The notes: generated by a model from the sequence alone, not told the origin. Shown: positions 2,225-2,518, numbered from the stretch's first letter. The stretch: DNA of 8,765 nt from a virus (IMGVR_UViG_2778261170_000011:1-8765), one strand, 5' to 3'. Numbers and translations: made by a program.

Positions 2225-2518
2225 TCACCCACGATTAACTAACCGCCAGACCAGCAGACACGCCACCACCGGCACAGCAAAATCCATCATGCTTGCCACA
2301 TCCCACGCGCGTGGATCAAAACCGCCCCACCACGGCATATTCATACGCTTGCCATGCCCGAACATTTCAATCCAGCGATATTCTGCCTGGGTGTGTTCAC
2401 GCGCAATGAAGAACGTACAACCGGCTATCGCTCCGTAAGCCCAGTTCCCGGTAAAAAGACCAATCAGTAGCTGCGCAGCCACAGCACAAAGAGCATGAAG
2501 GAAAGGTGTTATATCCAT
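2225..2518 (-). CDS. small polytopic membrane protein (~97 aa), function unknown; candidate prophage moron
   Basis: Minus-strand ORF with ATG at 2518-2516 preceded by AGGA (2528-2525) at 6-nt spacing; the track's TTG start at 2533 is less likely. Stop TGA at 2227-2225. Two to three hydrophobic helices (ITPFLHALCAVAAQLLIGLFTG; WAYGAIAGCTFFIA; ASMMDFAVPVVACLLVWRLV). GC-normal composition. Confidence 0.55.
   Translation of the reverse strand: MDITPFLHALCAVAAQLLIGLFTGNWAYGAIAGCTFFIAREHTQAEYRWIEMFGHGKRMNMPWWGGFDPRAWDVASMMDFAVPVVACLLVWRLVNRG

What the first reader, a model, noticed from the sequence alone, without database searches (positions are those of the whole stretch)
2225..2518. Small polytopic membrane protein after the fibre module: possible superinfection-exclusion moron
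A ~97-aa protein with two or three predicted transmembrane helices is encoded immediately downstream of the tail-fibre genes and is separated from them by a putative terminator (2535-2557), suggesting it can be expressed independently, as lysogen-expressed morons are. Small inner-membrane proteins at this position in temperate phages often block DNA entry of superinfecting phages. The function here is inferred from position and hydropathy only.
Basis: inference. Interest (0 to 1): 0.5.

Follow-up and report, generated by a model that had tools for sequence, protein, structure and literature searches.

The report
Uncharacterised small phage membrane protein gene
The 97-codon gene is real and encodes a three-helix membrane protein from a widespread, never-studied family that phages carry next to their receptor-binding genes, in the slots where related phages keep surface-conversion genes; no evidence yet shows that it blocks superinfection.

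Summary
A 97-aa ORF lies on the minus strand (2518→2225), 21 nt after a GC hairpin that follows the 346-aa fibre gene. It is under purifying selection (dN/dS about 0.10). It matches PHROG 1443 (function unknown) over its full length and is present in 1904 of 5426 complete E. coli genomes and in classical phage 21. AlphaFold gives three helices (pLDDT 93.7). The motif H8 / R40-E41 / Q44-A45-E46 / W72 / P83 is kept in at least 95% of 100 diverse members (R58 and D79 in 87%). No Pfam, NCBIfam, PADLOC, PDB or fold match was found, and there is no relation to HK97 gp15, P22 SieA, GtrA or the ε15 conversion and holin-like proteins.

The gene is a portable one-gene module. In at least eight phage lineages it sits directly after tail-fibre, tailspike or Tfa genes. 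In P22-like and ε15-like phages it fills the slot that P22 and ε15 use for O-antigen conversion genes. λ and ε15 lack it. Syntenic, selected copies also sit in non-phage chromosomal contexts in Aeromonas, Leclercia and sphingomonads.

So accessory, "moron-like" cargo is supported, and structural or lysis roles are unlikely. The terminator argument for independent expression fails, and superinfection exclusion remains untested.

The parts
2225..2518 (-). Coding sequence of the 97-aa three-helix membrane protein (PHROG 1443 family; 'FAM' in this report)
   Evidence: ORF list and sequence; phrog_1443 E = 5.6e-58; dN/dS 0.10; AF2 pLDDT 93.7.
2524..2527 (-). Shine-Dalgarno AGGA, 5 nt before the ATG at 2518. 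ATG 2524 and TTG 2533 are alternative in-frame starts.
   Evidence: Read directly from the sequence. Homologues start MD(I/L)(T/S)P.
2532..2554 (-). GC hairpin (stem 2554-2550 / 2544-2540, loop CGAGC) plus U-rich tail GUUUUAUU. It is the 3' end signal of the 346-aa fibre module, not part of the FAM module.
   Evidence: Terminator scan; RNA fold. Present in 36 of 84 E. coli copies and always with the fibre stop codon. The FAM-only mosaic block is 2221-2527 (H17-H20).
2561..3601 (-). Upstream 346-aa tail fibre with a C-terminal endosialidase-chaperone (Peptidase_S74) domain. It is an optional insert between the 93-aa gene and FAM.
   Evidence: Pfam PF13884 E = 8e-14; phrog_4563. Absent in phage 21, ev207 and Lambda_2E9.
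3611..3892 (-). 93-aa acidic protein (phrog_1361, unknown function). In many relatives it is the gene directly preceding FAM.
3892..6273 (-). Side tail fibre (stf-like) gene of the late operon
   Evidence: Pfam phage_tail_N E = 2.9e-66.

Best explanation
The ORF is a functional gene for a 97-aa inner-membrane protein with three helices, from a widespread uncharacterised family (PHROG 1443).

Shown: it is a self-contained one-gene module that moves between phages. It is not needed for making virions or for lysis. It is typically parked at the receptor-binding end of the late genes. In P22-like and epsilon15-like phages it occupies the position that P22 and epsilon15 use for O-antigen conversion cassettes. 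Bacteria also keep it as a single chromosomal gene under purifying selection.

Inferred: it acts on its own in the cytoplasmic membrane. It uses a conserved polar site at the membrane-water interface, formed by His8, Arg40-Glu41, Gln44-Ala45-Glu46, Arg48, Arg58, Trp72, Asp79 and Pro83. The positive-inside rule places this site on the cytoplasmic face. The site would bind or modify a component of envelope biogenesis or membrane physiology that is common to Gram-negative bacteria. It would not plug one particular phage receptor or injection channel. The likely pay-off for the phage is a changed envelope of the infected or lysogenic cell: conversion or exclusion in the broad sense, or stress tolerance.

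In this window it is the last gene of the late (tail-fibre) transcript, behind a weak hairpin. It would be read mainly by antiterminated late transcription, not from its own promoter. The prophage here is defective.
For: Gene reality and selection.

Structure and motif: AF2 gives three helices at pLDDT 93.7. Conservation in 100 diverse members is H8 98%, R40 99%, E41 100%, Q44 95%, A45 95%, E46 96%, R48 87%, R58 87%, W72 100%, D79 87% and P83 99%. Mean K+R counts are loop 5.3 and N-tail 0.67 against turn 0.07 and C-tail 0.68.

Accessory status: lambda and epsilon15 have no homologue in six-frame hmmsearch. The mosaic block equals the ORF plus its SD.

Conversion slots: Gally has tailspike - terminator - promoter-like site - FAM - int, where P22 has gtrCBA. 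phiv142-3 carries FAM where epsilon15 has the beta-polymerase and alpha-polymerase inhibitor, with syntenic flanks. phiHAP-1 gp19 lies between tfa and the sheath gene, the position of P2 fun(Z). vB_EcoP-611R6 has tailspike - OafA - fibre remnant - FAM - int.

Other contexts after a receptor-binding gene.

Cell-autonomous role: syntenic chromosomal copies without phage genes in five Aeromonas species, in Leclercia, and next to ligA, pnp, ftsZ and other housekeeping genes in alphaproteobacteria. Their dN/dS is 0.09-0.36 at dS up to above 1.

Transcription in this window.
Against: No biochemical function, partner or phenotype is known, and every database name is 'hypothetical protein'. No conserved neighbouring gene points to a pathway.

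Topology is unresolved. Positively charged C-terminal tails in chromosomal members and one lipobox-bearing variant (P0155) hint at the opposite orientation. The phage 21 record quotes TMHMM as two TMDs, N-in and C-in.

Conversion slots collect any kind of cargo, so position is not function.

Intact members occur in virulent Aeromonas jumbo phages and inside structural or lysis operons. A role in lytic growth therefore cannot be dismissed.
Confidence: 0.5

Rival explanations
1. Specific superinfection exclusion. The protein sits in the inner membrane of the lysogen and blocks DNA entry of incoming related phages by contacting their ejection proteins or the host channel they use, as HK97 gp15 and P22 SieA do.
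For: It is a small inner-membrane protein encoded next to receptor-binding genes, where cognate exclusion genes are often found (PMC8594841). It occupies conversion and exclusion slots. In Gally it has an upstream terminator and a promoter-like site, consistent with prophage expression.
Against: There is no homology to gp15 or SieA, and no PADLOC hit. The same near-invariant motif occurs next to unrelated fibres in sipho-, podo- and myoviruses of Escherichia, Comamonas, Halomonas and Desulfovibrio, and in non-phage chromosomal loci. This does not fit a phage-specific contact. Selection is strongly purifying rather than diversifying. E. coli genomes commonly hold 2 and up to 6 copies in different prophages, so carriers are not closed to other carriers. 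In this window there is no promoter and a hairpin lies upstream.
Confidence: 0.2
2. A late lytic-cycle membrane function linked to lysis, such as a holin, antiholin or lysis-timing factor, or protection of the membrane until lysis.
For: The size and three helices resemble class I holins. It abuts lysis cassettes in Comamonas prophages, phiv142-3 and Aeromonas phage 62AhydR11PP, where its start overlaps the preceding membrane-protein gene by 4 nt. It is co-transcribed with late genes in lambdoid phages. It is intact in a virulent jumbo phage.
Against: Those lysis cassettes are already complete without it: Phage_holin_8 plus holin, endolysin and Rz in phiv142-3 and epsilon15. epsilon15 and lambda lyse without it. 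In lambdoid phages it lies about 20 kb from S-R-Rz. No Pfam holin family matches beyond one weak hit in 100 members. A 34-residue, highly conserved polar loop is unlike holins. Stable single-copy chromosomal orthologues next to housekeeping genes are unexpected for a lethal pore former.
Confidence: 0.12
3. A tail-fibre or tailspike accessory factor, such as a membrane-anchored assembly or maturation helper for the upstream fibre.
For: It is tightly linked to fibre, spike or Tfa genes in many lineages, sometimes with overlapping stop and start codons. Several neighbouring fibres carry the Peptidase_S74 chaperone domain.
Against: The neighbouring fibres are unrelated to one another. The gene is intact where the fibre is reduced to a 114-nt remnant. 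It stands alone after a terminator in Gally. It is absent from lambda and epsilon15, which have homologous tail modules. It is present in chromosomes with no phage genes nearby.
Confidence: 0.05

Closest known systems
PHROG 1443, including phage 21 gene CPT_21_24 ('putative membrane protein', OL657228)
   Same: Same family. The HMM match is full length (E = 5.6e-58) and identity to the phage 21 protein is 94%. Position is the same, as the last gene after stf and the 92-aa gene.
   Different: Nothing differs functionally, because nothing is known: the PHROG is labelled 'unknown function'. In this window an extra 346-aa fibre gene and a hairpin are inserted upstream.
Serotype-conversion cassettes in the same genomic slot: P22 gtrABC, and the epsilon15 O-antigen beta-polymerase plus 66-aa alpha-polymerase inhibitor
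   Same: Same position relative to the tailspike, lysis genes and int in phages of the same genera. These are small or polytopic inner-membrane proteins that change the cell surface and so prevent re-infection.
   Different: No sequence relation to GtrA or to the epsilon15 inhibitor (hhalign probability below 1%). It is a single gene. No effect on O-antigen has been shown.
Inner-membrane superinfection-exclusion proteins HK97 gp15 and P22 SieA
   Same: Small membrane proteins encoded among late or virion genes of temperate phages. gp15 is annotated as a moron with its own terminator.
   Different: No homology. gp15 and SieA are confined to narrow phage groups, whereas this family spans Proteobacteria and has non-phage chromosomal members.
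Exclusion genes next to receptor-binding genes (Cor of phi80/N15/T1-like phages, Llp of T5). Basis: background knowledge plus PMC8594841.
   Same: Encoded directly downstream of the receptor-binding locus.
   Different: Those are outer-membrane or lipoprotein blockers of one receptor (FhuA) and co-vary with the receptor-binding protein. This protein is polytopic, is predicted to lie in the inner membrane, and is conserved regardless of fibre type.
Class I holins (for example lambda S105)
   Same: About 100 aa with three transmembrane helices, and a late gene.
   Different: It has a long, conserved polar loop between helices 2 and 3. It lacks the highly charged C-terminal tail in phage copies. 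It does not pair with an endolysin gene in lambdoid phages, has no Pfam holin match, and has housekeeping-context orthologues.

Membership tests
PHROG 1443 (uncharacterised phage protein family) | Significant full-length match to the family HMM | tested here: met
   E = 5.6e-58, residues 1-96 on profile positions 1-96 of 97.
Moron (independent cargo unit in a phage genome) | Present or absent between otherwise syntenic genes of related phages | tested here: met
   Absent from lambda and epsilon15. Present in phage 21, phiv142-3 and Gally. The mosaic block is 2221-2527.
Moron (independent cargo unit in a phage genome) | Own promoter upstream of the gene | tested here: not met
   In this window only 21 nt separate the hairpin from the ATG. 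No promoter-like site lies between 2519 and 2725 on the minus strand, and region-wide promoter hits are at chance level (4 found against 5.4 expected). In Gally a promoter-like TTAAGA-18-TAGAAT site exists, but this is a consensus match only.
Moron (independent cargo unit in a phage genome) | Own terminator downstream | tested here: not met
   No terminator-like site on the minus strand between 2224 and 1700. None was found downstream of the gene in Gally either.
Moron (independent cargo unit in a phage genome) | Base composition distinct from the flanking genes | tested here: inconclusive
   FAM is 53% GC. The upstream fibre genes are 42-45% and the downstream spacer 35%, while J and lom are 52-55%.
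Known inner-membrane superinfection-exclusion proteins (HK97 gp15, P22 SieA) | Sequence or profile homology | tested here: not met
   hhalign probability 0.2% for each. No PADLOC model matches.
Superinfection exclusion as a function | Expression in the lysogen, and reduced infection or DNA entry by incoming phage | not testable with these tools
   Needs RNA-seq or 5'-RACE and plating, adsorption and injection assays.
O-antigen conversion proteins (GtrA; epsilon15 alpha-polymerase inhibitor) | Sequence or profile homology | tested here: not met
   hhalign probability at most 0.2%. No Pfam GtrA hit.
Holins | Match to a holin family and/or obligatory pairing with an endolysin gene | tested here: not met
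   No Pfam holin hit for the window protein; 1 of 100 members hits Phage_holin_8 at E = 0.0036. hhalign against the epsilon15 gp23 holin-like protein gives probability 0.3%. No endolysin gene is present in the window.
Tail-fibre assembly proteins or chaperones | Strict co-occurrence with a cognate fibre, and soluble Tfa-like or S74-like domains | tested here: not met
   It is a membrane protein. It occurs without any fibre gene in chromosomal loci and after a mere fibre remnant.

The most novel reading that the evidence does not exclude
The family is a minimal three-helix membrane enzyme or regulator. It may work as an oligomer. Its conserved His/Arg-Glu/Gln-Ala-Glu/Trp/Asp site would act on a universal lipid-linked envelope intermediate, for example undecaprenyl-phosphate-linked glycans or the machinery that handles them. 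A single 97-codon gene would then give phages a new, host-independent way to convert the cell surface or shut out further infection, and bacteria would use the same protein in normal envelope physiology.
Probability: 0.12. Interest if true: 0.75.

Novelty: new member of a known kind. Interest (0 to 1): 0.4.

Why it matters
The gene is present in about a third of complete E. coli genomes, often in several copies. It is also in the classical phage 21, in E. coli B, and in phages and chromosomes across Proteobacteria. Even so, it has no name, no Pfam family and no paper. It sits where phages keep the genes that alter the host surface. Its sharply conserved polar motif gives clear point mutants to test. 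Finding its activity would annotate thousands of 'hypothetical proteins'. It could also reveal a new single-gene conversion or exclusion mechanism, or a new small membrane enzyme. If it proves to be just another cargo gene with a modest effect, the gain is only better annotation.

Tried and rejected
Searches that gave nothing:
- Pfam, NCBIfam, PADLOC and PDB sequence searches, with the single protein and with profiles of 65 and 100 members.
- hhalign against HK97 gp15, P22 SieA, P22 GtrA, the epsilon15 alpha-polymerase inhibitor and epsilon15 gp23. All probabilities were below 1%.
- Literature searches for FIG00639861, WP_001551179, phrog_1443 and topic terms. No paper on this protein was found. 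The phiv142-3 paper studied the upstream orf6, not orf5.
- Source names of distant members. All are 'hypothetical protein'.
- Rfam on the hairpin and the AT-rich spacer. Nothing relevant.

Ideas considered and rejected:
- The plus-strand 73-aa ORF 2217-2438 as the real gene. Homology and the synonymous-substitution pattern are in the minus frame.
- A svsR-like sRNA near this gene. That sRNA maps to cI.
- A functional link to ftsZ or cell division from the ftsA-MFS-FAM-ftsZ arrangement. It is confined to one sphingomonad subgroup, and other alphaproteobacteria have the gene next to ligA, pnp and other housekeeping genes.
- A link to the neighbouring sitABCD genes. They are on the opposite strand and are variable cargo.

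Limitation: clustering of neighbouring ORFs in high-GC loci mostly returned alternative-frame artefacts.

Full report
OBSERVATION. The finding's coordinates hold a real ORF on the minus strand. The ATG is at 2518 and the TGA stop at 2227-2225, giving 97 codons. An AGGA ribosome-binding site lies 5 nt upstream, and there are two further in-frame starts at 2524 and 2533. Hydropathy shows three hydrophobic stretches. AlphaFold2 on a 65-sequence alignment gives three helices (4-23, 26-53, 74-96) with mean pLDDT 93.7. The reported terminator is a 5-bp GC stem (2554-2540) followed by GUUUUAUU, sitting between the stop of the 346-aa fibre gene (2561) and this ORF. As a fold it is not unusual for its composition (z = -1.66). 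The gene is clearly not a chance ORF. It matches phrog_1443 over its full length (E = 5.6e-58). It has 568 homologues in the 90% clustered database and 449 clusters at 50% identity. Among 38 distinct E. coli alleles the median dN/dS in this frame is 0.10.

LOCUS. The window is the right end of a lambdoid prophage inserted near thrS. On the minus strand it reads: a terminase gpA fragment, the C-terminal third of J, a split lom, stf, a 93-aa acidic protein (phrog_1361), a 346-aa fibre with a Peptidase_S74 chaperone domain, the hairpin, then the 97-aa gene. A 481-nt AT-rich spacer follows, then a convergent KAP-family P-loop NTPase that hits the PADLOC candidate PDC-S49. The terminase fragment abuts the J fragment, so the head and tail genes have been deleted and the prophage is defective.

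THE FAMILY. All members are stand-alone proteins of about 85-125 aa. No domain fusions appeared among the best 150 representatives. In 100 diverse members the following residues are almost invariant: H8 (98%), R40 (99%), E41 (100%), Q44, A45 and E46 (95-96%), R48 and R58 (87%), W72 (100%), D79 (87%) and P83 (99%). The consensus is H...Q...G.W..GA...F.GRE.aQAEYRWI...G.G.R.NMPWwGGfD.R.W...S.lD...P. By helix geometry, H8, R40/E41 and D79 lie at the same membrane interface as the 34-residue loop; this is an inference from the model's secondary structure. Mean K+R counts are 5.3 for the loop and 0.67 for the N-tail, against 0.07 for the helix 1-2 turn and 0.68 for the C-tail. The positive-inside rule therefore predicts N-in, loop-in, C-out. 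The orientation is not settled, for three reasons. Chromosomal members carry basic C-terminal tails. One variant has an N-terminal lipobox (P0155). The phage 21 GenBank note quotes TMHMM as two TMDs with N-in and C-in.

NO KNOWN RELATIVES. There are no Pfam, NCBIfam, PADLOC or PDB-sequence hits for the protein or for profiles of 65 or 100 members. No specific fold match was found in BFVD or the PDB. Profile comparisons with HK97 gp15, P22 SieA, P22 GtrA, the epsilon15 alpha-polymerase inhibitor and the epsilon15 gp23 holin-like protein are all null. Every source name is 'hypothetical protein', apart from 'putative membrane protein' in phage 21. No paper mentions the protein.

WHERE IT OCCURS. 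It is in 1904 of 5426 complete E. coli genomes, with a median of 2 and up to 6 copies per genome. It is in 69 deposited phage genomes.

In phages it lies directly after receptor-binding genes in lineages that share nothing else:
- Lambdoid phages, including phage 21, ev207, Lambda_2E9 and Tritos.
- P22-like Gally and vB_EcoP-611R6.
- The epsilon15-like phiv142-3, after a pectate-lyase-type spike.
- The P2-tailed Halomonas phage phiHAP-1. Its gp19 overlaps the end of tfa and precedes the sheath gene, which is the position of P2 fun(Z).
- Comamonas siphoprophages, after J, a fibre or Tfa and before the lysis genes.
- A Desulfovibrio prophage, where it overlaps the end of a 935-aa S74-type spike.
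- A Leclercia prophage, after a Tail_spike_N protein.
- A DGR-like locus with the order tail protein - FAM - reverse transcriptase.
- HC6-type virulent siphophages, as a decayed 51-aa remnant after the tailspike.

There are exceptions. It lies after an SLT-like endolysin and a membrane protein in Aeromonas phage 62AhydR11PP. It lies inside the morphogenesis operon of Aeromonas phage 4_4512, before a Mu-type portal gene in a Desulfovibrio contig, and is intact in a virulent Aeromonas jumbo phage.

Two synteny comparisons are the most informative. In Gally the order is tailspike, a strong terminator, a 190-nt AT-rich spacer with a promoter-like site, FAM, then int. P22 has gtrCBA-attP-int at exactly that place. 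phiv142-3 aligns with epsilon15 across the spike N-terminus and across gp23-holin-endolysin-Rz. Between those blocks, epsilon15 has its O-antigen beta-polymerase and alpha-polymerase inhibitor, and phiv142-3 has FAM. Whole-genome six-frame profile searches find no homologue in lambda or epsilon15. The gene is therefore dispensable cargo, not a core structural or lysis gene.

The family also lives outside phages:
- Five Aeromonas species share the locus Pirin - FAM - RIO1 - two lipid A acyltransferases.
- Leclercia species have it between a peptidase M3 gene and a MetE-like gene.
- Sphingomonad-type alphaproteobacteria have it after ligA, pnp, AMP nucleosidase or DAHP synthase, or between ftsA-MFS and ftsZ.

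These copies have diverged to dS 0.4 to above 1 with dN/dS of 0.09-0.36. This shows vertical inheritance under selection without any phage partner.

TRANSCRIPTION. That does not follow, because a terminator upstream of a gene blocks read-through and does not start transcription. No promoter-like site lies in the 21 nt between the hairpin and the start, or in the 3' end of the fibre gene. The only minus-strand match is at 2911-2882, and the number of matches in the region is at chance level. The hairpin also does not belong to this gene. Phages that share only this gene match the window at 2221-2527. Of 84 E. coli copies, 36 have the fibre-stop-plus-hairpin junction. The other 48 begin 10-12 nt after the stop codon of another late gene, behind an AGGAGG site with no hairpin. 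In lambdoid phages it is thus the last cistron of the late transcript, which is antiterminated (established knowledge of lambdoid Q function). In this window the hairpin would, if anything, lower expression from non-antiterminated transcripts. The Gally arrangement shows that the same gene can also stand as a separate unit in a region that is prophage-expressed in P22. That rests on consensus matches only.

HOW IT MOST LIKELY WORKS.
Shown: the gene is real, selected, membrane-embedded, portable, dispensable for virion production, placed in slots used for surface-conversion genes, and retained by bacteria on its own.

Inferred: it acts cell-autonomously through the conserved polar interface site on something common to Gram-negative envelopes or membranes. 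The phage benefit is a changed envelope of the infected or lysogenic cell. I put 0.5 on this general reading.

It is compatible with size and position, and exclusion genes are known to sit next to receptor-binding genes (PMC8594841). Four points count against it: invariance of the motif regardless of neighbouring fibre type, phage morphotype and host; purifying rather than diversifying selection; frequent multi-copy carriage; and long-lived non-phage orthologues.

A lysis-linked role gets about 0.12. It is suggested by adjacency to lysis cassettes in three lineages. However, those cassettes are complete without it, and lambda and epsilon15 lack it. A fibre-assembly role gets about 0.05. It is contradicted by intact copies beside a fibre remnant and by copies with no fibre gene at all.

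COMPARISON AND NOVELTY. The gene is a member of PHROG 1443 and is nearly identical to phage 21 CPT_21_24, so it is already catalogued but wholly uncharacterised. It resembles known conversion and exclusion cargo in position and in being a small membrane protein, but it failed every homology test against such proteins. It meets the presence/absence criterion of a moron. In this window it does not meet the own-promoter or own-terminator criteria. I class it as a new member of a known kind, namely phage accessory membrane cargo.

The most novel reading not excluded is that it is a minimal membrane enzyme or regulator acting on a universal lipid-linked envelope intermediate, giving one-gene surface conversion or exclusion (probability about 0.12).

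Interest is moderate at 0.4. The family is very common, sharply conserved and experimentally tractable, since phage 21 and E. coli B carry it and clear point mutants can be made. Nothing found so far is surprising for a specialist.

Noticed in passing
window 1-1743 (+): A 580-aa KAP-family P-loop NTPase (Pfam PF07693) with very low GC (31.6%). It hits the PADLOC candidate defence family PDC-S49 (E = 7e-16). It is convergent with the small membrane gene and is the last gene before thrS in a relative, so it is a likely prophage-borne defence candidate.
   Followed up: partly
window 7000-8765 (-): A terminase gpA ATPase fragment (8160-8765) abuts the C-terminal third of J (7000-8187). Similarity to a full-length-J relative stops at 8187. 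All head and tail genes have therefore been deleted and the prophage is defective.
   Followed up: partly
window 6332-6932 (-): The lom (Ail/Lom) gene is split into a 166-aa and a 52-aa ORF, whereas the relative NZ_CP038505 has an intact 199-aa gene. This is a probable frameshift pseudogene.
   Followed up: no
window 3611-3892 (-): A 93-aa acidic protein (phrog_1361, unknown function) whose start overlaps the stf stop codon. In phage 21, ev207 and Lambda_2E9 it directly precedes the small membrane gene, so the two often travel together.
   Followed up: no
window 1744-2224: A 481-nt AT-rich (35% GC) non-coding spacer between the convergent genes. It has no Rfam match and no clear terminator.
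   Followed up: partly
window 4900-5980 (-), within stf: The side tail fibre contains a long Ala/Ser/Thr-rich repeat region (AAKTSETNAK-type units). In the relative L002 this gene is broken into two annotated pieces.
   Followed up: no
L155, L156, L164 (phages ev207, Lambda_2E9, 21); L001 (Tritos): The cargo just beyond the small membrane gene differs between otherwise similar phages. It is the sitABCD Mn/Fe transporter in phage 21 and ev207, PinR plus a regulator in Tritos, and the KAP NTPase in this window. This is a cargo hot spot.
   Followed up: partly
L033 3785-7054 and L035: In Comamonas nitrativorans and Pigmentiphaga the family gene lies between a tail protein (phrog_2889) and a reverse transcriptase. 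This looks like a diversity-generating retroelement at a fibre locus.
   Followed up: no
L161 3965-4120 (phage HC6 and relatives): An unannotated 51-aa decayed remnant of the family gene lies right after the tailspike of a group of 47.7-kb siphophages.
   Followed up: partly
L158 (phiv142-3 orf5/orf6): A published deletion of orf6, the tailspike immediately upstream of the family member orf5, gave iron-limitation and serum phenotypes. orf5 itself was not examined. The authors report complementation by orf6 and no change in downstream transcription (PMC7724020).
   Followed up: partly
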